DNA from: an uncultured Formivibrio sp.
GTDB taxonomy: Bacteria > Pseudomonadota > Gammaproteobacteria > Burkholderiales > Chitinibacteraceae
Direction of reading: 5' to 3'
Assembly: GCA_964291975.1 (NCBI GenBank)
Contig: CAXYUI010000001.1
Location: 1-28,300, forward strand
Length of the DNA stretch: 28,300 nt
In this document: positions 2,957 to 24,379 of the stretch, in pieces
How the letters are laid out: every line of letters begins with the position of its first letter
How positions within the stretch are numbered: the first letter of the stretch is position 1
The notes under the pieces: generated by a model
Database searches by the model: none
What the model was told of the DNA's origin: nothing
Seen by the model: the letters and a program-made list of their open reading frames with translations, nothing else
Program-made: the position numbers and the translations under genes

Positions 2957-3892
2957 TTATTGGTTGTCTTTACGCGCCGCTTCCACCATGGCCAGAAAAT
3001 AGGCCAAGGCGACTTCGCCCAATTGCGCTGCCAGTTGGGATTCAAGCGGTCGCAATGCTTGCTGGAATGGCGCGATATCCGGCGTGTCGATCTGCATCCC
3101 CGATGCGGCCAGCGAAGCCAGCTGACCGGCTTCTTCTGCGCGGCAATATTCGCGCATCCATTGCCCGGCTTTGCTTGATTCTTCCCGGATGATCGCCTGC
3201 AATTCCGGCGCCAGTTTTTGCATTCGGGCGTGGTTGGCAATGTGCGTGGTCGCGCCATAGCAATAATTCAGCATCGACAGATAGCGTTGTGTGGTTTCTA
3301 GAAATTGTGAATGGATGACGCACACCGGGTTTTCTTGACCGTCGACCAAGCCTTTTTGCATGAAGTCATTCAGGCGAGAGAACTCGCTGACGACCGGCTG
3401 AGCCCCTAGCGCCTTGATCGCATTGATGTATTGCGGTGTAGGCGGCACGCGAATCTTTAATCCCTTCATGTCCTCGGGCGTGAGGATCGGGCGGCGGGCA
3501 TTGGTGATCTGGCGAAAACCCCATTCCCAAGCGCTGATGCATTCGATCCCTAATTCATCGAGCTCCGGCGCTACCCACGGCTGCAAATGGTGGGCAAGAA
3601 AAGAATCTACATGACGCGCGTTTTGAAAAATGAAAGGCAGGCCAAGGCAAGAAAATTTGTCGATATGGGTGGCCATGCGGTCAAAAGGAGGTAAAGCCAT
3701 ATCCAACTGCCCGCTGACGACCAGTTGAATCAAGGACGGCAAATGACCGAGCACGCTATCGGGCACCACGGTGATTTGCAGGCGGCCGTTGCTGCGCAAG
3801 CTGACCGCATCCACAAAGCGCAATACCGCGGCATGCGCGGGGTGGTTTTCTGGCGCGTGGTGCGCCAGCAGCAGATTTTCGATGCGGAACAT
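2957..3892 (-). CDS. dctP: TRAP transporter substrate-binding protein (DctP family), orphan, no signal peptide
   Basis: Motifs HPAH...SNGRLQITVVPDSVLG, GFRQIT, DMKGLKIRVP, GLVDGQENP. No dctQ/dctM in the window. In-frame TAA 16 codons upstream of the ATG. Confidence 0.85.
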   Translation of the reverse strand: MFRIENLLLAHHAPENHPAHAAVLRFVDAVSLRSNGRLQITVVPDSVLGHLPSLIQLVVSGQLDMALPPFDRMATHIDKFSCLGLPFIFQNARHVDSFLAHHLQPWVAPELDELGIECISAWEWGFRQITNARRPILTPEDMKGLKIRVPPTPQYINAIKALGAQPVVSEFSRLNDFMQKGLVDGQENPVCVIHSQFLETTQRYLSMLNYCYGATTHIANHARMQKLAPELQAIIREESSKAGQWMREYCRAEEAGQLASLAASGMQIDTPDIAPFQQALRPLESQLAAQLGEVALAYFLAMVEAARKDNQ

Positions 3893-3990
3893 GAACCATC
3901 CAATCGCGGTGGGTCGAGGTGTAAGTGAAATGTAGTTTTATCTCGGGAGCTTGGCCAGAGCTTGCCTATAACAAGCAAAGGAGGTGAGGG
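3893..3990. promoter_or_regulatory. Divergent promoter region between dctP and the signalling operon
   Basis: 98-bp intergenic region between divergent starts. Contains TATAAC (3967-3972, + strand), a strong SD GGAGGTGA before ATG3991, and on the - strand TGGCCA-17 nt-TACATT. Promoter elements are weak matches only. Confidence 0.4.
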
Positions 3991-5229
3991 ATGCTCGAGA
4001 CGGTGCTTGAACACATCACGGACAGCGTGTGCGGGCTGGATGCGAAAGGCCAGGTTTTGTTTGCCAATGCCGCAACCAGTTATTTACTGGGCTGGAGCAG
4101 CGACGAAATGCGTGGCGTGGCGCTGCGCGAGCTGGCCTATCGTAATCGACCCGCAGGCGTTGGCGTGTTGTCGGATCAAAGCCCGCTCAGTTGGCTGGAA
4201 AGTGAAATCGCCATTTACCACATCGAAGAGACAGTCTGGAACCAAGAAGGGCAGCCGATTCTGGTTGAGCTGACCGCAACACCCACGACGCCGGATGAAT
4301 CTTTGCATGTGCGCATGTTGGTGGTGATGCGTGAAGTCTCCGATCGGCAATACAACCAGGAAGCCTTGCTCGATGCGTTCCGCCACTTGGCCGAAATCAA
4401 TTTGCGTCTGGAAGAAACCAGCATGCAATTGCTGCAAACAGAAAAAATGGCGGCCGTGGGGCAATTGGCGGCAGGCATGGCGCATGAAATCAATAATCCG
4501 GTTGGCTTTATTCTGTCGAACCTAAATAGTCTGGCGCGTTATACAGAGCAGTTATTGGGTGCTTTTGAGCAAATAGCCGCTTCTGATGCCGCTGCGCAAT
4601 GGCCGGAATTTCACGCCCGGATCGGCGCCATCAAACAAGAACTGGATTACGACTATTTGCAGCAAGACATGACAGCCATTTTGCAAGAATCGCGGGATGG
4701 CCTGCTGCGCATTAAAAAGATCGTCCAAGATTTGCGCGGTTTTGCCCAAGAAGATGCAGCGCAGATTCCGTGGGGCGCGGTCAGCATTCCTGCCAGCGTA
4801 GAGGCGGCACTTAATCTTTTGAGCGAGCCGAGCCGAGGACGGATTTTTTGTCATTGGGATCCGGATCTGCCCGAAATTCACGCGCAATGGTCAGAGCTGA
4901 ATCAGTTGTGGATGTTACTGATGCAAAACGCTATTTTGGCAATTGACGATGTCGGTGAAGTACATATTTCTGCCCATTTGTTAAATCAAGAAGTGCGCGT
5001 TGAAATTGCCGATACCGGCTGTGGCATCTCGCCCGAACATCTCTCCCGGATTTTTGAACCCTTCTTTACCACGCGCGCGGTCGGGCAGGGGCGCGGACTG
5101 GGTCTGACGGTGGCTCGGCATATTGTCGATCGTCACGGCGGGCGCATTCAGGTGGACAGTCAACCCGGTCGCGGCAGCCGGTTTTTTGTGTATTTGCCGA
5201 TCAGCCAGCCGGCAGGAGGTGGGGCATGA
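3991..5229 (+). CDS. Cytoplasmic PAS-domain sensor histidine kinase (HK1)
   Basis: N-terminal PAS; H-box GQLAAGMAHEINNP; N-box MQNA; G1 DTGCGI; F-box IFEPFFTT; G2 GRGLGL; no TM segment; strong SD. Confidence 0.9.
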   Translation: MLETVLEHITDSVCGLDAKGQVLFANAATSYLLGWSSDEMRGVALRELAYRNRPAGVGVLSDQSPLSWLESEIAIYHIEETVWNQEGQPILVELTATPTTPDESLHVRMLVVMREVSDRQYNQEALLDAFRHLAEINLRLEETSMQLLQTEKMAAVGQLAAGMAHEINNPVGFILSNLNSLARYTEQLLGAFEQIAASDAAAQWPEFHARIGAIKQELDYDYLQQDMTAILQESRDGLLRIKKIVQDLRGFAQEDAAQIPWGAVSIPASVEAALNLLSEPSRGRIFCHWDPDLPEIHAQWSELNQLWMLLMQNAILAIDDVGEVHISAHLLNQEVRVEIADTGCGISPEHLSRIFEPFFTTRAVGQGRGLGLTVARHIVDRHGGRIQVDSQPGRGSRFFVYLPISQPAGGGA

Positions 5230-6539
5230 CCGAAACCAACCAGGCCGTGCTGTTACTGGTCGATGACGAACCGGGCATTCTCAATGCCCTGCGCCGGCTT
5301 TTACGGCCAGAAGGCTATCGCATTCTGACCGCCGACAGTGGCATGGCCGGCCTTGCCTTGCTGGAGCAAGAGCCCGTCGATCTGGTCATTTCCGACATGC
5401 GCATGCCGCAGATGGATGGCGCGGCTTTTCTAAGTCAGGTGCGTCAGCGCTGGCCGGATGCCGTGCGCATCTTGCTCACGGGTTATGCCGATGTCAGCTC
5501 AACCATCGCCGCCATCAATCAAGGCGAAATCTACCGCTATATCGCCAAACCCTGGGACGACAACGAAATCGTGCTGACGGTGCGGCAAGCGCTGGAGCAA
5601 GGCCGTCTCAAGCGTGAAAACGCGCGCCTTTTGGCGCTGACCGAAAAACAGAACGTCGAATTGCGCCAACTCAACGAAGGGCTGGAGGCGCTGGTCGAAC
5701 AAAGAACCGGCGAATTGCGGCAAACCGTGTCTTTTCTGGAATTGGCGCAAAGCGAGCTGAAAAAATCCTTCCTCAATTCGATTAGCGTGTTTTCGGGGTT
5801 GATGGAAATGCGCAACGGCAGCATTTCCGGGCATTCGCGCCGGGTTGCCGAACAAGCCCGTCGTCTGGCGCGGCGCGCCCGCTTAAACGAAGCTGAAGTC
5901 CAAGATATTGTATTTGCAGCGCTTTTACATGATATCGGCAAGCTGGCCTTATCGGATCGCCTGCTGGATAAACCCTTTTACAGCCTGCCCATGGCCGATC
6001 AGGCTGAAGTCATGAAACACCCGGTCAAAGGGCAGATGGCGCTGATGGGTATTGATCAACTCAAAGAACCGGCGCGTTTGATTCGCGCCCATCACGAACG
6101 CTTCGATGGCAATGGCTATCCGGATCGGCTGGCCGGGTTGGCTATTCCATATGGCGCGCGGATTCTGGCCATCGCCAACGATTTCGACGCTTTGCAAGCT
6201 GGCTTGCTGCAAAACCGGCGCTATTCGGAAAGCGAAGCCCGGCTGCTGCTGGTGGAAGGCAAGGGCAGTCGCTATGACCCGGTGCTGGTCGATCTTTTCA
6301 ATGAAAAAAATGCCGATGCCAACGAACCGCGCGAGCCCGATACCTTGCTCAAAACCGGGCAACTGCGCGCCGGGATGGTGTTGTCGCGCGATCTGGTTAA
6401 CCAGGATGGTTGCCTGCTTCTCGCGCATGGCCATGTGCTGACCGAAAGCCTGGTGCAGCAGGTGCGGCAATTCGAGCAGGCCGAAGATGTTTCTTTGGAA
6501 CTGTATATCCGGAACTCATCGATACAGGTGCAAAAATGA
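5226..6539 (+). CDS. Response regulator, REC + HD-GYP domain (c-di-GMP phosphodiesterase family)
   Basis: REC motifs LVDDE, SDMRMP, KPW. HD-GYP motifs GHSRRV, HDIGK, KHP, HHERFDGNGYP. ATGA overlap with HK1. Confidence 0.9.
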   Translation: MTETNQAVLLLVDDEPGILNALRRLLRPEGYRILTADSGMAGLALLEQEPVDLVISDMRMPQMDGAAFLSQVRQRWPDAVRILLTGYADVSSTIAAINQGEIYRYIAKPWDDNEIVLTVRQALEQGRLKRENARLLALTEKQNVELRQLNEGLEALVEQRTGELRQTVSFLELAQSELKKSFLNSISVFSGLMEMRNGSISGHSRRVAEQARRLARRARLNEAEVQDIVFAALLHDIGKLALSDRLLDKPFYSLPMADQAEVMKHPVKGQMALMGIDQLKEPARLIRAHHERFDGNGYPDRLAGLAIPYGARILAIANDFDALQAGLLQNRRYSESEARLLLVEGKGSRYDPVLVDLFNEKNADANEPREPDTLLKTGQLRAGMVLSRDLVNQDGCLLLAHGHVLTESLVQQVRQFEQAEDVSLELYIRNSSIQVQK

Positions 6540-7093
6540 ATTACATCCTGCTGCTGGACGACGAAGCGCCCATTCTCAAATCCCTGCAACGCCTGTTGGC
6601 GCGCACGCCCTGCACCTGCAACGGGGTGCGTTATCCCTTGCAAATTGTCACCGAAACCGATCCGGCGGCGGCGCTGGAATATGTGCGGCATCACACGCTC
6701 GATCTGATCGTGTCCGATTACCGCATGCCGGGGATGGATGGCGTGAGTTTTCTGACGGCCTGCAAAGAAATCCAGCCCGATTGCATGCGGCTGATTCTGT
6801 CGGGTTACACCGATCTTAATGCGCTCGTTGGCGCCATCAATCAAGCGCAGATTTTCCGTTTTTTAAGCAAACCCTGGAACGATTACGAGCTGGTTGCCAC
6901 CATCGGCCAAGCTTTGGCTTTCCGGCAATTGCAGATCGAAAACCAGCGTCTGGCTGATGAGGCGAGGGTCAGGATGGGCGAATTGACGCCGCAAGAGCTG
7001 GAGCGGCGGCGGCTGGAGGCGCTGGAGCCAGGTCTGACTGAAGTGCGTTGGGGGGAGGATGGTTCGGTGCTGCTTGATGATGAAGAGGCCTGA
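6536..7093 (+). CDS. Stand-alone response regulator (REC + short coiled-coil/acidic tail), 185 aa
   Basis: REC motifs LLDDE, SDYRMP, LSGY, KPW. Start placed at ATG6536 (ATGA overlap with the upstream stop, and where REC homology begins) instead of 6410 in the ORF track. Confidence 0.85.
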   Translation: MNYILLLDDEAPILKSLQRLLARTPCTCNGVRYPLQIVTETDPAAALEYVRHHTLDLIVSDYRMPGMDGVSFLTACKEIQPDCMRLILSGYTDLNALVGAINQAQIFRFLSKPWNDYELVATIGQALAFRQLQIENQRLADEARVRMGELTPQELERRRLEALEPGLTEVRWGEDGSVLLDDEEA

Positions 7094-7095
7094 AA

Positions 7096-8142
7096 ATGAG
7101 CCGTTTGCGTCACCTTATCCCGGCGGGCGAACAAGCGAGGTTGGCGCATGTGCTGGGGCGGATTTTGGGTGAAGCGTTCTGCGTACTGGACGAAAGCGGC
7201 GAATTATTGATCGGCAAGCACAACGCAGGAGCGATGCATCCGGTTTTGCTTAATTTGCAAGAGATCGCGCAGGTGGGCGCTGCCGGGGCTTCACCGGAAA
7301 ATCTGATTCTTGCCACCGAGGTTTTTGAAGCCATGCTCAGCGCCTGGGCTTGGAGCGCTCAGCAAGAGCAGGTGCTGCGGCAGCGCTATCAGGCTGAAAA
7401 ACTGGCTAGCGTGGGGCGATTGGCTGCGGGGGTAGCGCATGAAATCAACAATCCAGCGGCCTATATCCACAGCAATTTACAAATGGCGCTGCGCTATCAG
7501 GGCTTGTTGGATGAACTGGCAGCGCCCGCGCAAGATGCCGATGCCGCAGCATTGCTAACGCTGTGGCAGCAACGGCGAATCGATCAGGTTCTGATTGATG
7601 GTCATGAACTCTTGAATGAGAGCTTGTGCGGCATTGAGCGCATCGCGCGCATCGTGCGTGATTTACGGGTTTTTTCTTGCGTGGATCGTCATCAGGAAGA
7701 TGTGGACGATCCCAACGAGCTGTTGACGGCGGTGGCGCAGATCATTCGCGGGCAATTAGCGCAGGGGCAGGAACTCTTGCTTGATTTGCAGCCATTGCCG
7801 GCGATTCCTTGTTTGCCGGGTTATCTGAATCAGGCTTTTCTGGAAATCTTGAACAATGCCCGCCAAGCGCTGAACGGCCATGCGCAAGGCAAAATCACCC
7901 TTACGAGCAAGATGCAAGGCGACGAAGTGGTGATCGTGGTTGAAGACAACGGTGCGGGGATGTCACAGGAAGTCCTGGCTCATGTTTTTGAGCCTTTTTA
8001 CACCACGCGCGATCCCAATGAGGGGACTGGATTAGGTCTGACCGTGGCGCGGGACATCATCCTTGCGCACGATGGCCGGATCCAGATCGACAGTATTCCG
8101 GGTCGCGGCACAACGGTGTCGCTGACATTACTGGGGGGATAG
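7096..8142 (+). CDS. Cytoplasmic histidine kinase with a minimal (~100 aa) N-terminal input region (HK2)
   Basis: H-box GRLAAGVAHEINNP; N-box ILNNARQA; EDNGAGM; VFEPFYTT; GTGLGL; starts 2 bp after the upstream stop. Confidence 0.9.
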   Translation: MSRLRHLIPAGEQARLAHVLGRILGEAFCVLDESGELLIGKHNAGAMHPVLLNLQEIAQVGAAGASPENLILATEVFEAMLSAWAWSAQQEQVLRQRYQAEKLASVGRLAAGVAHEINNPAAYIHSNLQMALRYQGLLDELAAPAQDADAAALLTLWQQRRIDQVLIDGHELLNESLCGIERIARIVRDLRVFSCVDRHQEDVDDPNELLTAVAQIIRGQLAQGQELLLDLQPLPAIPCLPGYLNQAFLEILNNARQALNGHAQGKITLTSKMQGDEVVIVVEDNGAGMSQEVLAHVFEPFYTTRDPNEGTGLGLTVARDIILAHDGRIQIDSIPGRGTTVSLTLLGG

Positions 8143-8143
8143 T

Positions 8144-9592
8144 ATGGAAGCGTTTTTTGCCTGGTCATCGCGCTTTGCCACCGGGATCGATGTCGTCGAT
8201 AAGCAGCACCAGGATTTGTTTGAGCTGATTAATCAGCTGCATAGCGCTTTGCAGGATCCGCAGATCGACCTGCCCACGATTCATCGCATTTTCGATAACT
8301 TGCTGCAATACACCGATTACCACTTTCATGACGAGGAACGCCTCATGATTGAGGCTGGCATGGAGGCGGCTTCGCTGGATGGGCATCGGCAAGGGCATGG
8401 CTTGTTTGCGCAGCAGGTGGAATTGGCCGCAAAAAATGACGATGCGCGCAGTCGTGAGTCCATCCAGTCTTTGCTCGATTATTTACTCAACTGGTTGATT
8501 TTCCATGTGCTCGATGCCGACCAGCGCATGGCGCGTGAAATTGCCGCACTACGTTCCGGCGCAACGCCGGAGCGCGCGCGGCTGGCCGGGCAAGAGCCGG
8601 TGGCGACCTCGGTCACGCTGTTAACCCAATCCATGCATGCTTTGCATGCCGCTTACCTGAATGCGCAACAGCGTGTTTTTGAAGAAAACCAGCGCCTAGA
8701 AGAGCTTGTCGCCAAGCGCACGGCGCAGCTGCAAAGCGAGAATCAACGCATGGAGCATTTGCTGGAGCAACTGCAACATGCCCAGATGCAGCTCTTGCAA
8801 TCAGAAAAACTGGCCACCATCGGCCAGCTGGCAGCGGGCGTTGCGCATGAAATCAACAATCCCATCGGTTTTGTAAATTCCAATCTGGGTTCTTTGCAGC
8901 AGTATGTGACTTCGCTTTTGCGTCTAATCGGGCTTTACGAATCGAACGAGCTTGCGCTGGATACCCAAGCGCGGGCGCAAATCGACGCTTTGAAGCGCAC
9001 GATCGAATTGCCTTTTTTGCGGCAAGACATTCTCGATCTTTTGCATGAATCAGCAGAAGGGTTGGATCGGGTCAAGAAAATCGTCCAAGACCTCAAGGAT
9101 TTCGCCCGTGCCGGCGAATCGGAATGGCAGGATGCTGACCTGCATCAGGGGCTGGAATCCACCATCAATGTGGCGTGGAACGAAATCAAATACAAAGCGG
9201 AAATCGTGCGCGAATACGGTGTTTTGCCCTTGGTGCATTGCATGCCGGCACAGCTTAATCAGGTCTTTATGAATCTCTTGGTCAATGCCGCGCAAGCCAT
9301 GCGAGAGCCGGGCGTGATTACCCTGCGCACCGGGGTGGAAGGCGAGCGCGTTTGGGTTGAGGTCGAAGACAACGGCCAGGGCATGAGCCCAGAAATCTGC
9401 GCGCGGGTGTTTGAACCTTTCTTTACCACCAAGCCGGCCGGGCAGGGGACTGGGCTGGGTTTGTCGCTCTCGCACAGCATTGTGCTCAGACATGGTGGCG
9501 AACTCACGGTGCAAAGCACCCCGGGGGTGGGGACGTGTTTTCGCATCAGTTTGCCGGTGGCCGGCCCCGGGGCGGAGGCGAGCGATGCGTAA
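8144..9592 (+). CDS. Bacteriohemerythrin-domain histidine kinase (HK3)
   Basis: N-terminal hemerythrin with all seven di-iron ligands (H22, H60, E64, H81, H85, H121, D126). H-box GQLAAGVAHEINNP; NLLVNA; EDNGQGM; FEPFFTTK; GTGLGL. Confidence 0.9.
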   Translation: MEAFFAWSSRFATGIDVVDKQHQDLFELINQLHSALQDPQIDLPTIHRIFDNLLQYTDYHFHDEERLMIEAGMEAASLDGHRQGHGLFAQQVELAAKNDDARSRESIQSLLDYLLNWLIFHVLDADQRMAREIAALRSGATPERARLAGQEPVATSVTLLTQSMHALHAAYLNAQQRVFEENQRLEELVAKRTAQLQSENQRMEHLLEQLQHAQMQLLQSEKLATIGQLAAGVAHEINNPIGFVNSNLGSLQQYVTSLLRLIGLYESNELALDTQARAQIDALKRTIELPFLRQDILDLLHESAEGLDRVKKIVQDLKDFARAGESEWQDADLHQGLESTINVAWNEIKYKAEIVREYGVLPLVHCMPAQLNQVFMNLLVNAAQAMREPGVITLRTGVEGERVWVEVEDNGQGMSPEICARVFEPFFTTKPAGQGTGLGLSLSHSIVLRHGGELTVQSTPGVGTCFRISLPVAGPGAEASDA

Positions 9593-9625
9593 TGGGCAGG
9601 CCAACTCCGACCAAGCGAGGACATC

Positions 9626-12121
9626 ATGGCTGGATTGATAACCGCATTATTTTTTAGTGGCGATCAGGCCGTGGGCGAGTCTTTGCTCACCCTGTTTGCA
9701 GCGCATCCGGGCAAGGTCTCTTTGCAGCCGATTTTTGGCGTGCAAGAACTGGATATCTTGTTGGATCGAGAAGATATCGGCTGCATTCTGTGCATTCCGC
9801 CCGAAGCCGAAGAGGATCGTGGCTGGTCGGAAATTCTGCGCCGAGCCCAGCGACATTTCCCCGCCGTTCCCTTGATCTTGGTCGGCGCAGCAGGGCGTGC
9901 GCAGTGGCTTGCTGCGCAGGGGCGACATTATGGGGTTAGCGATTGCATTACCTTGGACGATGCGCGTTTATTGCACGAAACCATCGTCGCGGCCAGCTTG
10001 CATCGCCAGCGCATGAAAGCCTGTTACGCCGGCGTGGATGATGAATCCTGCCAGATATTTTCTACCCTGCTCGATAATCACGACGGCCTGTGCGTGACCG
10101 ATGCCGAGGCCAGAATCTTGCTGGTCAACGATGCGTTCACCCGCATTACCGGCTATGCGCAAGAAGAGGTGCGTGGCCAGAATCCGCGCATTTTGCAGTC
10201 GGGCGAACATGATGCTTCGTTCTATCAGCGCATGTGGGAAACCCTGGCGCGCGAGCAGTGCTGGCAGGGCGAAATTCATAATCGACATAAAGATGGCGGG
10301 GTTTTTCGTGAATGGCTGCGGATTGCTGCCGTACACGATATGGCGGGGAGGGTGACGCACTATATCGGTCAGTTCAGTTATCTGGCCGAGCAGATGCGCC
10401 TTGTGGAGCGCATTAACCAGATCGGGCGTGTTGACCTTTTAACCGGTGTGCCCAATCGTTCCCTTTTGCTTGATCGGCTCGATCAAGCGCTGATCAATGC
10501 GCAGCGCAATGCTTGTTATGTCGCGATCATGGTCATCAATATCGATCGTTTCCACCGGATCAACGATGCCCTCGGGCAAAGCACGGGCGATCATGTGCTG
10601 CATGAAGTGGCGCAAAGAATGGCGCAACAAATTCGTCAGGGCGACACGGTGGCGCGCTTGTTTGGGAACGAATTTGGCATCTTGCTCAATGGCCTTACTG
10701 CAGAAGAAGATTGTCAGGCGCTGGCCTTGCGCTTGCGAGCCTGTTTGGTCGAACCCATTGCCAATCAGACCGAATCCTTGGCGCTGACCGCCAGCATCGG
10801 GATCGCGCTGTATCCGCGAGATGGCGAGGATCGGGAATCCTTGTTGAAATCAGCCAATGCCGCACTGGCTCAGGCACGCAGCGAAGGCGGTGATTGCTAT
10901 TGCTTCCACTCGCGGGAGATGGAAAGCGCAGCGCAACGTCGGCAAGTCATTGAAGCGCAATTGCGCCGAGCCTTGGAGCGCCAGGAATTTAGCGTGGCCT
11001 ACCAACCGCAAAACAGCTTAGATAGCGGCAATATCGTGGGGGTTGAGGCGCTATTGCGCTGGAATAACCCCGAACTTGGCGTGGTCGGCCCGGCGGAATT
11101 CATTCCGGTGGCCGAAGAAAGCGGTTTGATTATTCCGATCGGCGCTTGGGTGCTGGAGCAAAGCTGCGCGCAAAACAAGGAATGGCTCGATCTGGGACTC
11201 GCGCGCCTGCGAGTGGCGGTGAACTTGTCGGCGCGCCAGTTCCGCAATCAAAGTCTGGTGGATGATGTGGCCGCCATTCTCAAAAAGACCGGCTTGCCGG
11301 CCGAATATCTGGAACTGGAAATCACCGAATCCTCGCTGATTCACGATATGGATTCAGCGATCAATACCTGCAAACGCATCAAGGCGCTGGGCATCAAGTT
11401 GTCGCTGGATGATTTTGGCACCGGCTATTCCTCCCTGACCTACGTTTCTCGCTTGCCGTTTGACAAGCTCAAGATCGACCAAAGTTTTGTGCGCGACATC
11501 ACCCAGAATCCGGCCAATGCCGCAATCGCCACGGCCACCATTGCCATCGCGCGCGGACTCAACCAGTCGGTGCTGGCCGAAGGCGTGGAAACCGAAGCGC
11601 AGGCGATGTTCTTGCGCGCGCGCCATTGCGATGCGATTCAGGGCTTTTTGTTCAGCCATCCAGTTCCTGCCGATTCGGTCACCCAGTTGCTCGCCAGCAA
11701 GGCGCGGCTGCAACTGGGCGGGCAAGCGTGTCAGACCGAACTGGCGCTCTTGGTGGTGGATGATGAACCGTCGATTCTCAACGCCATGCGGCGACTGTTC
11801 CGCCATGAATCCTTCCAGGTTCTGGTTGCCAACAATAGCGAAGAGGCGTTTGAAATCTTGGCGCAGCGCCCGATACAGGTCATCGTTTCCGATCAGCGCA
11901 TGCCCGGCATGACCGGCACGGAATTTTTCACCCGGGTGCGTCAACTCTATCCGGACACCATGCGCATTATTTTGTCCGGCTACACCGAACTGGAAACCGT
12001 GATCGAAGCCATCAATCGCGGCGCCATCTACAAATTCCTCACCAAACCTTGGGATGACGAACAATTGCGCGAGCAAGTGCGCGAAGCTTTCCGGCTGGCG
12101 GGGAGCGGAGAGTCGCGATGA
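9626..12121 (+). CDS. Pseudo-REC - PAS - degenerate GGDEF - EAL - REC protein; predicted c-di-GMP phosphodiesterase
   Basis: SD GAGGA upstream. PAS motif NDAFTRITGY. GGDEF site reads FGNEF. EAL motifs EALLRW, NLS, ELEITES, DDFGTGYSSL, KIDQSF, EGVET, QG. C-terminal REC motifs VVDDE, SDQRMP, KPW. Confidence 0.9.
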   Translation: MAGLITALFFSGDQAVGESLLTLFAAHPGKVSLQPIFGVQELDILLDREDIGCILCIPPEAEEDRGWSEILRRAQRHFPAVPLILVGAAGRAQWLAAQGRHYGVSDCITLDDARLLHETIVAASLHRQRMKACYAGVDDESCQIFSTLLDNHDGLCVTDAEARILLVNDAFTRITGYAQEEVRGQNPRILQSGEHDASFYQRMWETLAREQCWQGEIHNRHKDGGVFREWLRIAAVHDMAGRVTHYIGQFSYLAEQMRLVERINQIGRVDLLTGVPNRSLLLDRLDQALINAQRNACYVAIMVINIDRFHRINDALGQSTGDHVLHEVAQRMAQQIRQGDTVARLFGNEFGILLNGLTAEEDCQALALRLRACLVEPIANQTESLALTASIGIALYPRDGEDRESLLKSANAALAQARSEGGDCYCFHSREMESAAQRRQVIEAQLRRALERQEFSVAYQPQNSLDSGNIVGVEALLRWNNPELGVVGPAEFIPVAEESGLIIPIGAWVLEQSCAQNKEWLDLGLARLRVAVNLSARQFRNQSLVDDVAAILKKTGLPAEYLELEITESSLIHDMDSAINTCKRIKALGIKLSLDDFGTGYSSLTYVSRLPFDKLKIDQSFVRDITQNPANAAIATATIAIARGLNQSVLAEGVETEAQAMFLRARHCDAIQGFLFSHPVPADSVTQLLASKARLQLGGQACQTELALLVVDDEPSILNAMRRLFRHESFQVLVANNSEEAFEILAQRPIQVIVSDQRMPGMTGTEFFTRVRQLYPDTMRIILSGYTELETVIEAINRGAIYKFLTKPWDDEQLREQVREAFRLAGSGESR

Positions 12122-15100
12122 AGAAGCTCCGGCTCGCTTTGTTTCGCTTTGGCTTAGGGCGCAACTTGCTTGTGCTTTTTATCCTTGCGCTCATTAGCAT
12201 CACCTTGGCCGGTCGCTATCAGATTCGTCAGAGTCGCCAAGACGCCTTGGCTGGACTGCAAGTTTTGGCGCAATTAAAAGCCGAAGAAATCCGGCGTTGG
12301 CTGGAAGAAAAGCGCGCCAGCATCATCCAGCCCGATTCGGGCTATCTGGCCAGCGCTTTAATGCAATGGCAATCCGCACGCCCAGAGCCAAATCGAGATG
12401 AGTTATTCCGGCAAAAATTAGCGTTTTATCTGGCTCGTTATCCGGAAGCCAGCCGGGTGGTGGTGCTGGATGCCGCCGGCGCTTTTATCATCAGCTCGGA
12501 TTCTGCGCAGACCGAACAAGCGCTTCCTGCCGATTTTTCGTTAGAGATGCCGGCCAGTCCGGCGCAACTGGTCAATTTTCATGCGGATGAGCGTGGTCAG
12601 CCGCGCTTGGGCTTTCTGACCCCACTGATCTATGCCGGGCAACGTCAGGGTTTTGTCCTGATTGAATTCGATCCGCAGCGCGAGTTGTATCCCTCTCTGA
12701 ATCAGTGGCCGGGCTTGTCTGACTCAGGCGAAATACTGTTGTACCGGCGTATTCATCAAGAGATTGAATACCTCAGTCCTTTGCGCAAAGAAGCGCTGTT
12801 GCCCTTGAGTCGGCACCCGTCTTCCGCGAGCGAACCCCAAATTACCGCGCAGCAACGCCAGTCTGGTTTTGGTGACCGTGGTTTTGATACGCAAGGGCGG
12901 CCAGTATTGCGTGCGATTTATCCGGTCAAGGGAACCGACTGGGTGGTGGCGGCGCGTATTGCCTTGCTGGAAGCCGACCGACGGGCATGGGTCGACATCC
13001 TGCTGTTCTCGCTGTTTCTGGCTTTGCTGCTGGGGAGTCTGGCGCTCATTTTGCATCTGAGTAATCGGCGCCCCGCCGCGGTTGCCTCGGAGGCGCAGCG
13101 TCAGCATGACAAGCGTCTTTTGCTCGATTTTATCGATGCCGTGCCAGAAAGCCTGTTCATGCTCGATCGCCAGGGGCAAGTTTTGGTGATGAATGTGACC
13201 GGCGCTGAACGCTTGGGGCTGACGCCGCAGCAGATTATTGGTCGGAAAGTGTGGGATCTACTCCCTCTTAGCTTGCGAGAAAAGCGTCAACACATCGCCG
13301 AAAGTGTGTTCCGTGAGCGCAAGCCCAAGATGATTGCGGACAGTCGCGATCAGCGGCATTTTTTAACCTACATCTACCCCAGCCAGAATGGCGAGACTTG
13401 CGTTTATGTCGGTATGGACGTGACCGAGCGCAAGCAGATCGAAACCGCCTTGCGTGAGCGCGATGAACTGCTGCGCAGCCTGAGCGATCAGCTCCCGGAC
13501 AGTTTTCTGTATCGGCTCTGTGTCTATCCGGACGGACGCCGGCAATTTCTCTATATCAGTGCGGGTATTGAGGCGATACACGGGGTGTCATCAGAACAGG
13601 TGCTGGCGGATGCCTCCTCCATCTACGATCTGGTTGATCCGCAGCGCCGGGATGAGCTGGCGCAAGCCGAGGCGCGTTGTTTGCAATCTTTGTCTGACTT
13701 GCACACGACGGTGCGCATGCGCCGCGCTGATGGTTCCTGGGGCTGGTTCACCTTGCATTCACATCCGCATATTGCTGAGAACGGCGTCACCATTTGGGAT
13801 GGACTGGCCTCTGACATTACCGAAATTCGTGAAAATGAATTGCAACTGGCCAGCCAGGCGCGCCGCACCGCCGCTTTATTAAGCCTGCCCGCGCAAGCAG
13901 AAGCGCAAAGCGAAAATGATTTCCTGCAGTACAGCCTTGATATTGCCGAAGGGTTGACGGGCAGCCGTATTTCCTTCCTGCATTTCGTACACGAAGATCA
14001 AAACCAGATCGAGCTCTTGTGCTGGTCGCGCAAGACGCTGGCGCACTATTGCCATGCCATGTTTTCACGGCACTACGCTGTGGAAAAAGCCGGAATCTGG
14101 GCGGATGCGTTTCGCCTGCGCCAACCGGTTGTCGTTAATGATTACGCCGCGGCACAAGGCAAGCATGGCTTGCCGCCAGGTCATGCCCACTTGCAGCGCA
14201 TGGTTTGTGTGCCGGTGATTGAGGATGGCCAGGTTCGTTTGGTGGCAGGGATTGGCAATAAGGATGACGACTACACCGATTACGATGTGGAAACCTTGCA
14301 ATTGATCGCCAACCAGGCTTGGCGGATTGCTCATCGACGTCGCGTGGAGCGTGATTTACGCAAGATTGCGCAGGTGGTTGAAGCCAGCCCGGCGGTATGT
14401 TTCCGTTGGGATGCCAGTGATGGTTGGCCGGTGCAGTTTGTTTCGGACAATGTGCGGCGCTGGGGCTATGAGCCGCAGCAACTTATTTCAGGGGAAATCA
14501 GCTTTACCTCGCTGATTCACCCCGACGATTTGCCGCGAATTGCCGAAGAAGTAAAAACCTATGTGCAGCAAGGATTACAAAGTTACGATCAGGAATACCG
14601 CTTGTGTTGTGCCGATGGCCGCTACATCTGGGTGCTCGATCACACCATGATCCAGCGCGATGCCAATGGGCAGGCGCAAATGATTGAAGGCGTGTTGTCT
14701 GATATGAGCGAGTACAAGGCGCAGCAATTGGCGCTGGAAGAAAGTCTGGAAAATCAATATGCGCTCAATCGCCGTTTGGAAGATGCGCAAACCCAGTTGT
14801 TGCAATCAGAAAAACTGGCCGCAATTGGGCAATTGGCCGCAGGCGTGGCGCATGAACTCAATAACCCGATCGGGTTTGTGTATTCCAATTTGGGGACGCT
14901 GACGGAATATGTGACCGGCTTGATCACCATTTGCGATGCGTATGCGCAATTGAGCGAAAGCCAGCATCCAGATTGTCCTGGATTGGGTGAAATTCAGCGC
15001 ATCAAGCAAGATCAGGATTACGACTATTTGCGCAGCGATATCTTTCCGCTGCTCGATGAATCGCGGGAAGGGTTGATTCGTGTGCGCAAGATTGTGCAGG

Positions 15101-15603
15101 ATTTGCGCGATTTTTCCCGCGCAGGCAATCAGGAGTGGGAAGCGGCCAATCTGCACAAGGGCATTGATTCCACGCTGAATATTGTGGCCAATGAACTCAA
15201 ATACAAATGCACCGTGGTGAAAGAATATGGTGAATTGCCCGATGTGGTTTGCGTGATTTCGCAATTGAATCAGGTGTTTCTGAACCTGTTTGTGAATGCC
15301 GCCCAAGCCATTGAAAAGCAAGGCACGATTACCGTAAAAAGCGGCATGGACGATGCGGAGCATGTCTGGATCAGCATCGCCGATACGGGGCAAGGCATTG
15401 CCCCTGATAACCTGAAGCGGATTTTTGATCCTTTCTTCACCACCAAGCCGGTGGGAATGGGAACCGGGCTGGGGCTGGCGCTGGTGTTTGGCATCATCTC
15501 CCGCCATCACGGCCGCATTGAGGTGAGCAGCGAAGTGGGCAAGGGTACGACTTTCCGTATTATTTTGCCGGTGCAACAACCTGCGCCTGAGGCCAAACCA
15601 TAA
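12118..15603 (+). CDS. Membrane-bound multi-sensor histidine kinase (TM - periplasmic Cache-like - TM - PAS - PAS - GAF - PAS - HisKA - HATPase) (HK4)
   Basis: Two hydrophobic segments flanking about 250 aa; PAS/PAC-like repeats; GAF-like RMVCVPVIEDGQVRLVAGIGNK; H-box GQLAAGVAHELNNP; complete ATPase boxes; ATGA overlap. Confidence 0.88.
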   Translation: MKKLRLALFRFGLGRNLLVLFILALISITLAGRYQIRQSRQDALAGLQVLAQLKAEEIRRWLEEKRASIIQPDSGYLASALMQWQSARPEPNRDELFRQKLAFYLARYPEASRVVVLDAAGAFIISSDSAQTEQALPADFSLEMPASPAQLVNFHADERGQPRLGFLTPLIYAGQRQGFVLIEFDPQRELYPSLNQWPGLSDSGEILLYRRIHQEIEYLSPLRKEALLPLSRHPSSASEPQITAQQRQSGFGDRGFDTQGRPVLRAIYPVKGTDWVVAARIALLEADRRAWVDILLFSLFLALLLGSLALILHLSNRRPAAVASEAQRQHDKRLLLDFIDAVPESLFMLDRQGQVLVMNVTGAERLGLTPQQIIGRKVWDLLPLSLREKRQHIAESVFRERKPKMIADSRDQRHFLTYIYPSQNGETCVYVGMDVTERKQIETALRERDELLRSLSDQLPDSFLYRLCVYPDGRRQFLYISAGIEAIHGVSSEQVLADASSIYDLVDPQRRDELAQAEARCLQSLSDLHTTVRMRRADGSWGWFTLHSHPHIAENGVTIWDGLASDITEIRENELQLASQARRTAALLSLPAQAEAQSENDFLQYSLDIAEGLTGSRISFLHFVHEDQNQIELLCWSRKTLAHYCHAMFSRHYAVEKAGIWADAFRLRQPVVVNDYAAAQGKHGLPPGHAHLQRMVCVPVIEDGQVRLVAGIGNKDDDYTDYDVETLQLIANQAWRIAHRRRVERDLRKIAQVVEASPAVCFRWDASDGWPVQFVSDNVRRWGYEPQQLISGEISFTSLIHPDDLPRIAEEVKTYVQQGLQSYDQEYRLCCADGRYIWVLDHTMIQRDANGQAQMIEGVLSDMSEYKAQQLALEESLENQYALNRRLEDAQTQLLQSEKLAAIGQLAAGVAHELNNPIGFVYSNLGTLTEYVTGLITICDAYAQLSESQHPDCPGLGEIQRIKQDQDYDYLRSDIFPLLDESREGLIRVRKIVQDLRDFSRAGNQEWEAANLHKGIDSTLNIVANELKYKCTVVKEYGELPDVVCVISQLNQVFLNLFVNAAQAIEKQGTITVKSGMDDAEHVWISIADTGQGIAPDNLKRIFDPFFTTKPVGMGTGLGLALVFGIISRHHGRIEVSSEVGKGTTFRIILPVQQPAPEAKP

Positions 15604-23605: not shown

Positions 23606-24379
23606 ATGCGTCGCAAGCATCGCCCCGAAGAACACGAAAATCACGAACGCTGGCTGGTGTCGTATGCCGACTTCATCACGCTGCTCTTCGCGTTCTTCGT
23701 GGTGATGTATGCGATCTCATCGGTCAACGAAGGCAAGTACCGGATTCTGTCCGATTCCTTGACCAGCGCGTTTCGCAATGTCACGCCCAGCTCGATCAAT
23801 CCGATTCAAGTGGGGCAGCCGAGCAGTGGCCAGATTGTGCGGCCGGTGGCCTCGGCCGTTGAGATCAAACCCGCCGATACGGCCGAAGCGCGCAAAATGC
23901 AGTTGATGGCGAACGAGCTTAAAGGCTCACTGGGTTCAATGATCGACCAAGGCAAGGTGCGAGTGACGCATTCCAAGCGCGGCATCGCCATTGAAATCAA
24001 CGACTCCATCTTGTTCGATCCGGCGCGAGCCGATCTGCAGCCAGCTTCTGCTGAGATGCTGCTGGCGGTGGCGGAAATGGTGAAGGGCACCGACAACCTG
24101 ATCCAGATCGAAGGCCATACCGATAACCAGCCGATCCGTTCGGCGCAATTTCCTTCAAACTGGGAACTTTCAAGCGCGCGTGCCGCCAGCGTGGTGCGCC
24201 TGTTTGCTGAGGCCGGTATTGCATCGCAACGCATGGTGGTGATCGGCTACAGCGAATTTCGCCCGGTTGAGCCCAACGACACCATCGAGCGCCGCGCCCG
24301 CAACCGGCGCGTCACGCTCAATATCCTGGCTGACAATCGCGACGACGTGTCGGTCTTGCCGCTCGCACAAAAACCCTGA
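23606..24379 (+). CDS. motD: Flagellar stator subunit MotB/MotD (OmpA-like peptidoglycan-binding domain)
   Basis: ERWLVSYADFITLLFAFFVVMYA with the conserved Asp; EGHTD; NWELSSARA; RNRRV. The choice of motD over motB rests on resemblance of the AISSVNEGKY segment. Confidence 0.82.
   Translation: MRRKHRPEEHENHERWLVSYADFITLLFAFFVVMYAISSVNEGKYRILSDSLTSAFRNVTPSSINPIQVGQPSSGQIVRPVASAVEIKPADTAEARKMQLMANELKGSLGSMIDQGKVRVTHSKRGIAIEINDSILFDPARADLQPASAEMLLAVAEMVKGTDNLIQIEGHTDNQPIRSAQFPSNWELSSARAASVVRLFAEAGIASQRMVVIGYSEFRPVEPNDTIERRARNRRVTLNILADNRDDVSVLPLAQKP

What the first reader, a model, noticed from the sequence alone, without database searches (positions are those of the whole stretch)
3991..15603. 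Seven-gene multikinase network converging on c-di-GMP breakdown
Seen: seven co-oriented genes with junctions of ATGA overlap (three times) and gaps of 2, 1 and 33 bp. They encode four kinases of one subfamily with different inputs (PAS; minimal domain; hemerythrin; periplasmic plus 3 PAS plus GAF) and three Asp-bearing receivers. There is no DNA-binding, CheA/CheW or Hpt domain, and no intact diguanylate cyclase. Established: the Shewanella/Vibrio H-NOX networks similarly route kinases to an EAL protein (HnoB) and a degenerate HD-GYP protein (HnoD). Inference: an analogous but distinct O2/redox/metabolite-integrating circuit that uses hemerythrin in place of H-NOX and acts post-translationally on c-di-GMP. 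I do not recognise it as a characterised system, but could not search the literature.
Basis: partly seen in the sequence, partly recalled or inferred. Interest (0 to 1): 0.75.

Follow-up and report, generated by a model that had tools for sequence, protein, structure and literature searches.

The report
Multi-kinase c-di-GMP signalling operon, cut-down variant
Seven tightly packed genes encode four related sensor kinases and three receiver proteins whose only enzymatic output is breakdown of the messenger c-di-GMP. This is one trimmed version of a modular gene cassette, related to known nitric-oxide signalling networks, that is common in Betaproteobacteria and for which I found no experimental study.

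Summary
Seven co-oriented genes (3991-15603) have three ATGA overlaps and gaps of 2, 1 and 33 bp. They encode four HEINNP-type histidine kinases (PAS; sensor-less; hemerythrin; periplasmic-PAS-GAF) and three Asp-bearing receivers: REC-HD-GYP, REC with a short tail, and PAS-degenerate GGDEF-EAL-REC.

The circuit is homologous, not merely analogous, to the NosP/NosK/NosR and Hno networks: the HD-GYP protein passes NCBIfam's NosR model.

It is not unique. More than 590 genomes carry a NosR-type gene, and 85 inspected loci show a modular cassette that mixes the same gene types. These include the hemerythrin kinase (32 loci), (GGDEF-)EAL-REC (52), the tailed receiver (42), and sometimes NosP itself.

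The window's copy has no small GTPase gene and no receiver-fused MshEN pilus/secretion ATPase gene; in 23 and 20 of the 25 members of the short-kinase clade these flank the kinase.

The HD-GYP keeps HD, HHE and GYP, but its last metal-binding Asp is Asn, as in most of this family, so the intact EAL is the safest candidate output.

Phosphotransfer wiring and the signals sensed are inferred, not shown. Earlier reports of this scan described the same cassette on other DNA. This is a new variant of a known kind and of moderate interest.

The parts
3991..5229 (+). g1: soluble PAS histidine kinase (412 aa), H-box AHEINNP.
   Evidence: Pfam PAS, HisKA and HATPase_c. Its kinase core forms a three-member clade (support 0.99) with kinases of the two Formivibrio-genus relatives G008 and G018. 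In the window and in G018 this kinase lies next to the DctP-like gene.
5226..6539 (+). g2: REC-HD-GYP response regulator (437 aa) of the NosR/RpfG family, with a conserved extra C-terminal module of about 70 aa. The phospho-Asp is D57. HD, HHE and GYP are present. The final metal-binding Asp is Asn318 (codon 6177-6179).
   Evidence: NCBIfam NF053512 scores 574 bits against a cut-off of 400. Alignment to PmGH 4MCW, PA4781 4R8Z and V-cGAP3 5Z7C puts the Asn where all three have Asp. That position is N in 68, S in 10 and D in 1 of 85 orthologues.
6536..7093 (+). g3: single-domain receiver (185 aa, D61) with a conserved tail of about 55 aa. The consensus tail motif is RLE..EPGIT.V.WG.DGSV.LD (window: RLEALEPGLTEVRWGEDGSVLLD).
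   Evidence: Pfam finds REC only. The tail is conserved in 42 orthologues that lie directly after g2 orthologues. The AlphaFold model (pLDDT 87) shows REC, a long helix, a second helix and a small hairpin, with no HTH.
7096..8142 (+). g4: short sensor-less histidine kinase (348 aa) with all catalytic boxes intact. It lacks about 47 residues of the linker before the DHp helix compared with its Formivibrio orthologue.
   Evidence: Pfam. It sits in a 25-member clade (support 0.998) in which 23 members are preceded by a small GTPase gene and 20 are followed by a REC-MshEN-T2SSE ATPase gene; the window has neither. Pairwise alignment to the orthologue.
8144..9592 (+). g5: bacteriohemerythrin (residues 1-140, 8144-8563), coiled coil, then histidine kinase (482 aa). 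It is soluble, with phospho-His H235.
   Evidence: Pfam Hemerythrin 3e-13. NCBIfam bacteriohemerythrin NF033749 scores 91.5 against a cut-off of 84. The ligands H22, H60/E64, H81/H85 and H121/D126 keep the same H, H...E, H...H and H....D pattern in the commonest motif variants among 30 orthologues. The 120 best database relatives (of thousands of kinase matches) are all full-length hemerythrin-kinase fusions.
9626..12121 (+). g6: unassigned N-terminal region of about 140 aa, then PAS, degenerate GGDEF (FGNEF at 10661-10675, RxxD I-site kept), EAL and C-terminal REC (D756); 831 aa. It is the likely c-di-GMP phosphodiesterase.
   Evidence: Pfam EAL 2.7e-75, GGDEF, PAS and REC. The EAL motifs EALLR, N, EITES, DDFGTGYSS, KID, EGVE and QGF are all present and are conserved in about 45 of 54 orthologues. 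GGDEF is intact in only 11 of 54.
12118..15603 (+). g7: membrane kinase (1161 aa): TM, periplasmic Cache-like domain of about 260 aa, TM, PAS, PAS, GAF, PAS, HisKA-HATPase.
   Evidence: Pfam. It sits in a 24-member clade of mostly GAF kinases (20 of 24; support 0.995). In that clade 14 members lie directly after a (REC-)GGDEF-EAL-REC gene and 18 directly before a REC-HD-GYP gene.
3893..3990 (.). 98-bp divergent intergenic region between the DctP-like gene and g1; presumed promoter region of the operon. A GGAGG ribosome-binding site lies 6 nt before the g1 ATG.
   Evidence: Sequence. The sigma-70 consensus scan found nothing here, so the promoter is not identified.
2957..3892 (-). Possible accessory part: a DctP-family solute-binding protein (311 aa) that starts at the mature domain without a signal peptide, divergent from g1.
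   Evidence: Pfam DctP 4.6e-64. A 47%-identical orthologue, also without a signal peptide, lies inside the syntenic cluster of relative G018, next to the g1-type kinase. Linkage was seen in only 3 of 85 loci.

Best explanation
The seven genes are most likely one operon. It encodes a branched two-component network of the NosK/NosR-Hno type.

Four paralogous HEINNP-type kinases each carry a different sensor:
- g1: cytoplasmic PAS.
- g4: no recognised sensor.
- g5: di-iron hemerythrin, sensing O2, redox, NO or iron.
- g7: periplasmic Cache-like domain plus PAS and GAF.

They phosphorylate (and, through the H-E-x-x-N phosphatase motif, probably dephosphorylate) a shared set of three closely related 'KPW' receivers.

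The catalytic output is c-di-GMP hydrolysis by the intact EAL domain of g6. The g6 GGDEF domain is a dead cyclase that keeps its RxxD site.

g2 (REC-HD-GYP with the last metal ligand Asp changed to Asn) is either a second, weaker phosphodiesterase or a phosphorylation-controlled modulator of g6, as HnoD is of HnoB. g3 is a phospho-dependent adaptor or phosphate sink acting through its conserved tail.

Shown here: gene structure, domain content, motif states, family membership of g2, orthology of each gene, and wide synteny.

Inferred: co-transcription, many-to-many phosphotransfer, which signals are sensed, and the direction of the effect on c-di-GMP.

The window carries a cut-down form of a larger cassette. 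It has no small Ras/Arf-like GTPase gene and no REC-MshEN-T2SSE ATPase gene, although these usually flank g4-type kinases.
For: Operon structure:
- Junctions are three ATGA overlaps and gaps of 2, 1 and 33 bp.
- The gaps leave no room for further genes. Only weak terminator-like matches lie inside on the + strand, while a strong one precedes the region at 2754-2775.

Domain and motif evidence:
- Domains.
- g2 scores above the NosR-family cut-off.
- The EAL catalytic motifs are intact and GGDEF reads FGNEF.
- The hemerythrin ligands are intact.

Synteny:
- Relative G018 (same genus as G008, which one search identifies as Formivibrio citricus) holds orthologues of all seven genes plus DctP, the GTPase and the ATPase in one cluster. 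Formivibrio citricus (G008) holds five of the seven plus the GTPase and the ATPase.
- Within 9 kb of 85 g2 orthologues there are (GGDEF-)EAL-REC in 52, REC-tail in 42, HDOD in 37, hemerythrin kinase in 32, GTPase in 24, REC-ATPase in 20, GAF kinase in 20 and NosP/FIST in 6. Two or more kinases of this subfamily occur in 63.
- Each window kinase falls in its own conserved group of kinase cores: well-supported clades for g1, g4 and g7, and the main group of hemerythrin kinases for g5.

Shared specificity is plausible:
- The DHp helix 1 after the phospho-His (GVAHEINNPIGFVxSNLGTL) is nearly the same in the hemerythrin, GAF, NosK-like and HDOD-adjacent groups.
- The receiver helix 1 (DDEPxILxALxRL) is nearly the same in the g2, g3, g6 and ATPase receivers.
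- Within the genome the cluster's kinases and receivers are each other's closest paralogs.

Literature:
- In S. oneidensis, HnoK and HnoS both feed HnoB (EAL), HnoC and HnoD (degenerate HD-GYP), and HnoD inhibits HnoB (PMC6335343, PMC8846402, bioRxiv 10.1101/2021.11.05.467447).
- B. pseudomallei NosK has an H-E-I-N-N motif and phosphorylates NosR (PMC12570481).

Weak evidence: contigs from two metatranscriptome libraries of one study cover pieces of g2, g5, g6 and g7 and bridge the g5/g6 gap. DNA carry-over cannot be excluded.
Against: - No phosphotransfer, enzyme or expression measurement exists for any of these proteins. I found no paper on this cassette.
- g4 differs from the others in DHp helix 1 (NPAAYIHSNLQMALRY) and lacks about 47 linker residues. 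It may be insulated, rewired or decaying.
- Conserved adjacencies would also fit partly insulated pairs: GAF kinase beside EAL-REC, and short kinase beside REC-ATPase.
- No haem NO sensor is linked to the cluster. No H-NOX was found in the 92.5%-complete genome, and the only FIST protein is a FIST-GGDEF on another contig.
- The D-to-N change makes g2 catalysis uncertain in either direction.
- No promoter was identified.
Confidence: 0.65

Rival explanations
1. The operon holds several insulated one-to-one two-component pairs that merely travel together. For example, g7 would phosphorylate g6, g1 and/or g5 would phosphorylate g2, and g4 would phosphorylate g3. Signals would not be integrated at the level of phosphotransfer.
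For: Recurrent adjacencies fit pairs. 14 of the 24 members of the mostly-GAF-kinase clade lie directly after a (REC-)GGDEF-EAL-REC gene. 20 of 25 short kinases lie directly before the REC-ATPase gene. g4 has a divergent DHp helix 1.
Against: The specificity-bearing helices of the other three kinases and of all three receivers are nearly identical. The gene order is shuffled between species while the gene set stays. The characterised relatives (the Hno network) cross-phosphorylate (PMC6335343).
Confidence: 0.2
2. g2 is a working HD-GYP phosphodiesterase, not a regulator. The operon would then have two parallel catalytic outputs (HD-GYP and EAL), each switched on by phosphorylation.
For: HD, HHE, GYP and the other His ligands are intact in g2 and in 68 of 85 orthologues. 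An acidic residue always follows the Asn (D in 65, E in 19) and might take over metal binding. NCBIfam names the family a phosphodiesterase.
Against: The Asp replaced here is a canonical metal ligand, present in all three solved active relatives aligned. The replacement is family-wide, and family members drift further towards HnoD-like loss (HHE to QLE in 6; HD lost in 16 of 85). The characterised members HnoD and B. pseudomallei NosR are described as degenerate; HnoD did not hydrolyse c-di-GMP in assays and NosR is predicted to be inactive (bioRxiv 10.1101/2021.11.05.467447; PMC12570481).
Confidence: 0.35
3. The locus is a decaying remnant. The true output of the ancestral cassette was the receiver-fused MshEN pilus/secretion ATPase with its GTPase. 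After their loss, g3 and g4 (and perhaps more) are functionless relics.
For: The window has no GTPase or REC-ATPase gene. No REC-fused ATPase was found in the genome. g4 has an internal deletion of about 47 residues.
Against: All seven reading frames are intact, with complete catalytic and phospho-acceptor motifs. About 20 other loci keep g3 without the GTPase module. Near-identical DNA is held by 13 metagenome runs from seven studies. The MAG is only 92.5% complete, so a missing ATPase is not shown.
Confidence: 0.1

Closest known systems
Shewanella oneidensis / Vibrio cholerae Hno network (HnoX-HnoK and HnoS/NahK feeding HnoB, HnoC, HnoD; Plate & Marletta 2012, as summarised in PMC6335343, PMC8846402, PMC8738867)
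   Same: Several kinases converge on several receivers. An EAL phosphodiesterase receiver and a REC-HD-GYP receiver are the c-di-GMP outputs. The receivers share the KPW-type REC.
   Different: - No H-NOX or NosP partner is linked here, and the inputs are built into the kinases (hemerythrin, PAS, GAF, periplasmic domain).
- The EAL protein is PAS-GGDEF*-EAL-REC with a C-terminal receiver, not REC-EAL.
- g2 keeps HD and HHE, which HnoD has lost (SE, QLE).
- The third receiver has a short tail instead of HnoC's transcription-factor function.
- There are four kinases instead of two.
NosP/NosK/NosR of Burkholderia pseudomallei and B. thailandensis (nosRPK; PMC12570481)
   Same: g2 scores above the cut-off of the NCBIfam NosR family model. 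The kinases share NosK's H-E-I-N-N motif. Related loci found here (e.g. L046, L068) have the NosP-kinase-REC-HD-GYP order.
   Different: The window has no NosP. NosR of B. pseudomallei reads HG...GTP, whereas g2 reads HD...GYP with only the last Asp changed. NosRPK is one kinase with one regulator, whereas this locus has four kinases and three receivers.
Hemerythrin-coupled c-di-GMP enzymes: Vibrio cholerae Bhr-DGC and Ferrovum Bhr-HD-GYP (PMC9388753, PMC8846402)
   Same: A bacteriohemerythrin di-iron domain acts as the input to c-di-GMP metabolism.
   Different: There the hemerythrin is fused directly to the cyclase or the HD-GYP enzyme. Here it is fused to a histidine kinase, so the signal passes through phosphotransfer. 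The 2022 review of hemerythrin sensors (PMC9388753) describes no hemerythrin kinase.
Receiver / small GTPase / short kinase / REC-MshEN-ATPase cassette
   Same: g3 and g4 are orthologues of that cassette's lone receiver and dedicated kinase.
   Different: The window has neither the GTPase gene nor the receiver-fused ATPase gene, and no REC-fused ATPase was found in the genome.

Membership tests
NosR / RpfG family response regulator (REC-HD-GYP) | REC plus HD-GYP architecture, scoring above the curated NosR-family cut-off | tested here: met
   NF053512 scores 574.2 bits against a cut-off of 400, over model positions 1-422. Pfam finds Response_reg plus HD_5/HD.
Catalytically competent HD-GYP phosphodiesterase | Full set of metal ligands (H, HD, H, HH, D) plus GYP | tested here: not met
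   H, HD, H, HHE and GYP are present. The last Asp (PmGH D305 position) is Asn318. The residue aligned with PmGH E185 is Ser, so the domain is of the binuclear type. Activity itself was not testable.
Hno / NosP-type NO-responsive c-di-GMP network | Haem NO sensor (H-NOX or NosP/FIST) encoded with, and acting on, a kinase of the network | tested here: not met
   PF07700 gave no match in the genome (92.5% complete). The only FIST match is a FIST-GGDEF protein on contig C179.
Hno / NosP-type NO-responsive c-di-GMP network | Several kinases phosphorylating a shared set of receivers (branched phosphotransfer) | not testable with these tools
   Only indirect evidence: near-identical DHp helix 1 and receiver helix 1 across groups.
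Hno / NosP-type NO-responsive c-di-GMP network | Receiver-controlled EAL phosphodiesterase as output | tested here: met
   g6 has all EAL catalytic motifs and a C-terminal REC with D756. The architecture differs from HnoB (REC-EAL).
Hno / NosP-type NO-responsive c-di-GMP network | HnoC-type receiver that acts as a transcription factor | tested here: not met
   g3 has no DNA-binding domain by Pfam or NCBIfam. The model shows two helices and a small hairpin after REC. hnoC is also absent from V. cholerae (PMC8738867), so this feature is not universal.
Bacteriohemerythrin sensor domain | Seven di-iron ligands (five His, one Glu, one Asp) in a four-helix domain | tested here: met
   H22, H60, E64, H81, H85, H121 and D126 are present. 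NF033749 scores 91.5 against 84, and TIGR02481 scores 89 against 51.75. Metal and gas binding were not testable.
Active diguanylate cyclase (GGDEF) | GG(D/E)EF active-site motif | tested here: not met
   The motif reads FGNEF. The RxxD I-site (RQGD) is kept five residues upstream.
Active EAL phosphodiesterase | Motifs EALxR, N, E(L/I)TE, DDFGTGYSS, KID, EGVE and QG(Y/F) | tested here: met
   All are present in g6.
Receiver / GTPase / short kinase / REC-MshEN-ATPase cassette | Small Ras/Arf-like GTPase gene and receiver-fused MshEN-T2SSE ATPase gene flanking the short kinase | tested here: not met
   g3/g4 and g4/g5 are 2 and 1 bp apart, which leaves no room. The genome search found MshEN-T2SSE ATPases only without REC. 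g4 nevertheless lies inside that kinase clade (support 0.998).

The most novel reading that the evidence does not exclude
Two linked proposals remain open. First, hemerythrin-fused kinases would be a widespread, unstudied di-iron (O2, NO or iron) input into NosR-type c-di-GMP networks of denitrifying and iron-oxidising Betaproteobacteria. Second, the tailed lone receiver g3 (motif EPGIT.V.WG.DGSV.LD) would be a new phospho-dependent adaptor. It would couple that network to an MglA-like GTPase and a c-di-GMP-binding pilus/secretion ATPase in the full cassette, and to another target in cut-down copies such as this one. A signal-peptide-less DctP protein might serve as a cytoplasmic co-sensor of the g1 kinase.
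Probability: 0.25. Interest if true: 0.7.

Novelty: new variant of a known kind. Interest (0 to 1): 0.5.

Why it matters
Branched two-component networks that set c-di-GMP levels are known from only a few model systems (Hno, NosP). How many signals they integrate, and what degenerate HD-GYP proteins do, are open questions.

This locus shows that the same parts list is reused very widely in environmental Betaproteobacteria, including wastewater, denitrifying and iron-oxidising groups. About a third of the inspected loci carry a hemerythrin kinase, an input type for which I found no biochemical study.

Several cultivable carriers make the question testable: Formivibrio citricus, Azonexus hydrophilus and Dechloromonas hortensis. 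In them one could ask:
- whether a di-iron sensor controls biofilm or motility through phosphotransfer;
- whether Asn-type HD-GYP domains are enzymes or regulators;
- what the tailed receiver binds.

The window's own copy adds a natural 'deletion variant' without the GTPase/ATPase branch.

Tried and rejected
- **Complex prediction.** g6 EAL (435-700) against g2 HD-GYP (150-437) scored 0.00 and gave no verdict. This is neither support nor evidence against binding.
- **Papers not held.** Plate & Marletta 2012 and 2013, Nisbett 2019 and Fu 2023 could not be read. Hno and NosP details therefore rest on reviews and on PMC12570481.
- **Literature searches.** Searches for hemerythrin kinases or for a REC-MshEN cassette found no description of this system.
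- **Protein atlas search of g3.** It gave only 'response regulator' clusters.
- **g6 N-terminus.** Pfam on g6 residues 1-145, g4 residues 1-100 and the g2 C-terminal module gave nothing. A BLAST of the g6 N-terminus against the N-terminal receiver of a Dechloromonas orthologue was marginal (E 0.045), so 'pseudo-receiver' stays a guess.
- **Promoter.** The sigma-70 scan found no promoter before g1.
- **RNA libraries.** These are Logan contigs at low depth, and two of the four runs may be DNA. Uncovered stretches mean nothing, and the contig that crosses the divergent DctP/g1 region in X14 argues for DNA in that library.
- **Hemerythrin kinase phylogeny.** The idea that hemerythrin kinases form one clean clade was rejected. 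Their cores fall in more than one group within the main radiation, mixed with sensor-less kinases.

Full report
**Observation**

The window is the whole 28.3-kb contig C1 of a 2.1-Mb, 390-contig MAG rated 92.5% complete. Seven + strand ORFs lie at 3991-5229, 5226-6539, 6536-7093, 7096-8142, 8144-9592, 9626-12121 and 12118-15603.

Pfam gives the following domains:
- g1: PAS-HisKA-HATPase.
- g2: REC-HD_5/HD.
- g3: REC only.
- g4: about 95 unassigned residues, then HisKA-HATPase.
- g5: Hemerythrin-HisKA-HATPase.
- g6: PAS-GGDEF-EAL-REC behind about 140 unassigned residues.
- g7: weak dCache between two TM segments, then PAS, PAS, GAF, PAS, HisKA-HATPase.

No DNA-binding, Hpt or CheA/CheW domain appears. 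The cluster is bounded upstream by a divergent DctP-like gene (2957-3892, - strand) and downstream by a convergent MFS transporter gene. A strong terminator-like hairpin lies at 2754-2775 and only weak ones lie inside the cluster.

**Motif states**
- Each receiver has the acidic pocket, the phospho-Asp (g2 D57, g3 D61, g6 D756), the Thr/Ser and a Lys in a KPW motif.
- All four kinases read AHE(I/L)NNP at the H-box and have complete N, G1, F and G2 boxes.
- The g6 GGDEF motif is FGNEF, with the RxxD I-site retained. Every EAL catalytic motif is present.
- g5 has all seven hemerythrin ligands and passes two NCBIfam hemerythrin models.
- g2 keeps H, HD, H, HHE and GYP. Where PmGH (4MCW), PA4781 (4R8Z) and V-cGAP3 (5Z7C) all have the last metal-binding Asp, g2 has Asn318. 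It also lacks the Glu that marks trinuclear HD-GYPs.

**The parts belong together**

Inside this genome the best matches to the g5 kinase core are g7, g1 and g4 (53, 42 and 38% identity). Kinases on other contigs reach 36% or less. The receiver part of the NosR model hits g2, g6 (173 bits) and g3 (155 bits), and then nothing above 79 bits.

**Relatives**

Thirty related genomes were searched. Two of one genus carry full-length hemerythrin kinases. One of them, G008, is Formivibrio citricus by the source name and contig length of hit P0008.
- **G018 cluster.** It reads, in order: PAS kinase (- strand), DctP, GAF kinase, REC-HD-GYP, REC-tail, small GTPase, short kinase, REC-MshEN-T2SSE ATPase, hemerythrin kinase, PAS-GGDEF-EAL-REC. 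That is all seven window genes plus three more.
- **Formivibrio citricus cluster.** It reads: PAS kinase, REC-HD-GYP (74% identical to g2), REC-tail (66%), GTPase, short kinase, REC-ATPase, hemerythrin kinase (56-57%).

**Wider distribution**

An alignment of five g2 orthologues found more than 590 genome loci. The best 80 come mostly from Rhodocyclaceae (Azonexus, Dechloromonas, Aromatoleum, Zoogloea, Propionivibrio), Gallionellaceae, Sulfuricella, Janthinobacterium and some Gammaproteobacteria.

I annotated their ORFs by BLAST with domain queries taken from the window and from relatives. Within 9 kb of 85 g2 orthologues I found:

| Gene type | Loci |
|---|---|
| (GGDEF-)EAL-REC | 52 |
| REC-tail | 42 |
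| HDOD | 37 |
| Hemerythrin kinase | 32 |
| Small GTPase | 24 |
| REC-MshEN-ATPase | 20 |
| GAF kinase | 20 |
| NosP/FIST | 6 |
| Two or more kinases of this subfamily | 63 |

Many contigs are truncated, so these counts are floors.

A recurrent order in Azonexus and Dechloromonas is: GGDEF-EAL-REC, GAF kinase, REC-HD-GYP, REC-tail, GTPase, short kinase, REC-ATPase, hemerythrin kinase. Loci such as L046 and L068 show NosP, short kinase, REC-HD-GYP, which is the published nosP-nosK-nosR arrangement (PMC12570481).

In an even sample of 401 genomes of the class, 41 carry a protein above the NosR cut-off, mostly in a single copy (three genomes gave two matches).

**Orthology of the kinases**

I built a FastTree of 174 kinase cores.
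- g4 falls in a 25-member clade (support 0.998). In that clade 23 members are preceded by the GTPase gene and 20 are followed by the REC-ATPase gene. The window and one Accumulibacter locus are the exceptions.
- g4 also lacks about 47 linker residues compared with the Formivibrio orthologue.
- No REC-fused ATPase was found elsewhere in the MAG.
- g1 forms a small clade with the two Formivibrio-genus kinases, next to DctP in two of the three cases.
- g7 lies in a mostly-GAF-kinase clade (support 0.995). Members of that clade usually sit between the EAL-REC gene and the REC-HD-GYP gene.
- g5 lies among the hemerythrin kinases, which do not form one clean clade.

**Family-wide motif statistics**
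- g2 family: the last Asp position is N in 68, S in 10 and D in 1 of 85. HD is kept in 69 and HHE in 68. Six read QLE, the change reported for HnoD (bioRxiv 10.1101/2021.11.05.467447).
- g6 family: EAL motifs are kept in about 45 of 54, and GGDEF is intact in only 11.
- g5 family: the commonest motif variants among the 30 orthologues keep the same ligand pattern (H, H...E, H...H, H....D), and AHEINNP is invariant in all 30.
- The 120 best database relatives of g5 are all full-length hemerythrin-kinase fusions, at 47-56% identity apart from one shorter fragment at 79%. The fusion is therefore common in metagenomes, although the 2022 review of hemerythrin sensors lists none (PMC9388753).

**Wiring**

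The DHp helix after the phospho-His is almost the same in the hemerythrin, GAF, NosK-like and HDOD-adjacent groups (GVAHEINNPIGFVxSNLGTL). It diverges somewhat in the short-kinase clade, and most of all in g4. Receiver helix 1 (DDEPxILxALxRL) is almost the same in the g2, g3, g6 and ATPase receivers.

These are the helices that usually carry partner specificity (established knowledge from EnvZ/OmpR and Spo0F work). Shared partners are therefore plausible, as was measured for HnoK and HnoS (PMC6335343). This is inference, not proof.

**g3**

Its tail is strongly conserved; the consensus reads RLE..EPGIT.V.WG.DGSV.LD (the window has RLEALEPGLTEVRWGEDGSVLLD). The AlphaFold model (mean pLDDT 87) shows REC, a long helix 116-146, a helix 152-163 and a small low-confidence hairpin. 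There is no helix-turn-helix. I read it as a docking element. Its partner is unknown.

**Expression and habitat**

Near-identical DNA (more than 60% of sampled words) is held by 13 runs from seven studies of wastewater, sludge, groundwater and subsurface samples. One of these may be the source sample.

In two metatranscriptome libraries of one study, short contigs at 95% likeness or more cover parts of g2, g5, g6 and g7 and bridge the g5/g6 gap (9409-9699 and 9362-9701). This is only a weak hint of transcription, because DNA carry-over cannot be excluded and contigs do not show single transcripts.

**Verdict**

The locus is a member of a large, modular and apparently uncharacterised cassette family that is homologous to the NosK/NosR and Hno networks. 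It has built-in sensors, including a hemerythrin kinase, and c-di-GMP hydrolysis is its only recognisable enzymatic output.

The window's copy is a trimmed and rearranged version without the GTPase/ATPase branch. Whether g2 is an enzyme or an HnoD-like modulator, which kinase feeds which receiver, and what hemerythrin senses all remain open.

Earlier reports of this scan described the same cassette on other DNA. My synteny analysis reached the GTPase/kinase/ATPase core before I read them.

Noticed in passing
window 2957-3892 (- strand); L013 4175-5119: A DctP-family solute-binding protein starts at the mature domain (MFRIENLLLAHH...) with no signal peptide. Its 47%-identical orthologue in relative G018 also lacks one and sits inside the syntenic cluster, next to the g1-type PAS kinase. 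It may be a cytoplasmic ligand-binding co-sensor. Linkage was seen in only 3 of 85 loci.
   Followed up: partly
window 7096-8142 (g4), around residue 87: Compared with the Formivibrio citricus orthologue (398 aa), g4 lacks about 47 residues of the predicted coiled-coil linker between its conserved N-terminal 85 residues and the DHp helix. The catalytic boxes are intact.
   Followed up: partly
L001 1414-3201 (own genome, contig C179): The only FIST (NosP-type) domain in the MAG is fused to an apparently complete GGDEF domain (595 aa). It is a possible NO/haem-responsive cyclase that could supply the c-di-GMP the cluster degrades.
   Followed up: no
L024 11875-12519; L012 7770-8432; L080 14115-14768: In the full cassette a protein of about 215 aa with weak Arf/Ras-type GTPase matches lies between the tailed receiver and the short kinase. 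It is followed by a REC-MshEN-T2SSE ATPase gene. I found no paper on this module.
   Followed up: partly
L015 8291-11050 (- strand); L023: In two related loci the EAL-REC protein carries an N-terminal protoglobin domain instead of PAS. This is another gas-sensor input built into the same cassette.
   Followed up: no
window 5226-6539, residues about 370-437: g2 and all inspected orthologues carry an extra conserved C-terminal module after the HD-GYP domain (L..GMVL.RDL....G.LLL..G..L). It has no Pfam match.
   Followed up: no
window 23606-24379: A MotB-like gene (MotB_plug plus OmpA) lies directly after an SppA-type peptidase gene. No MotA gene was seen next to it among the ORFs I annotated.
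   Followed up: no
window 20-2710: A large (896 aa) protein combines a pectinesterase-like domain with a 3-keto-disaccharide hydrolase domain. It is followed by a strong terminator-like hairpin at 2754-2775.
   Followed up: no
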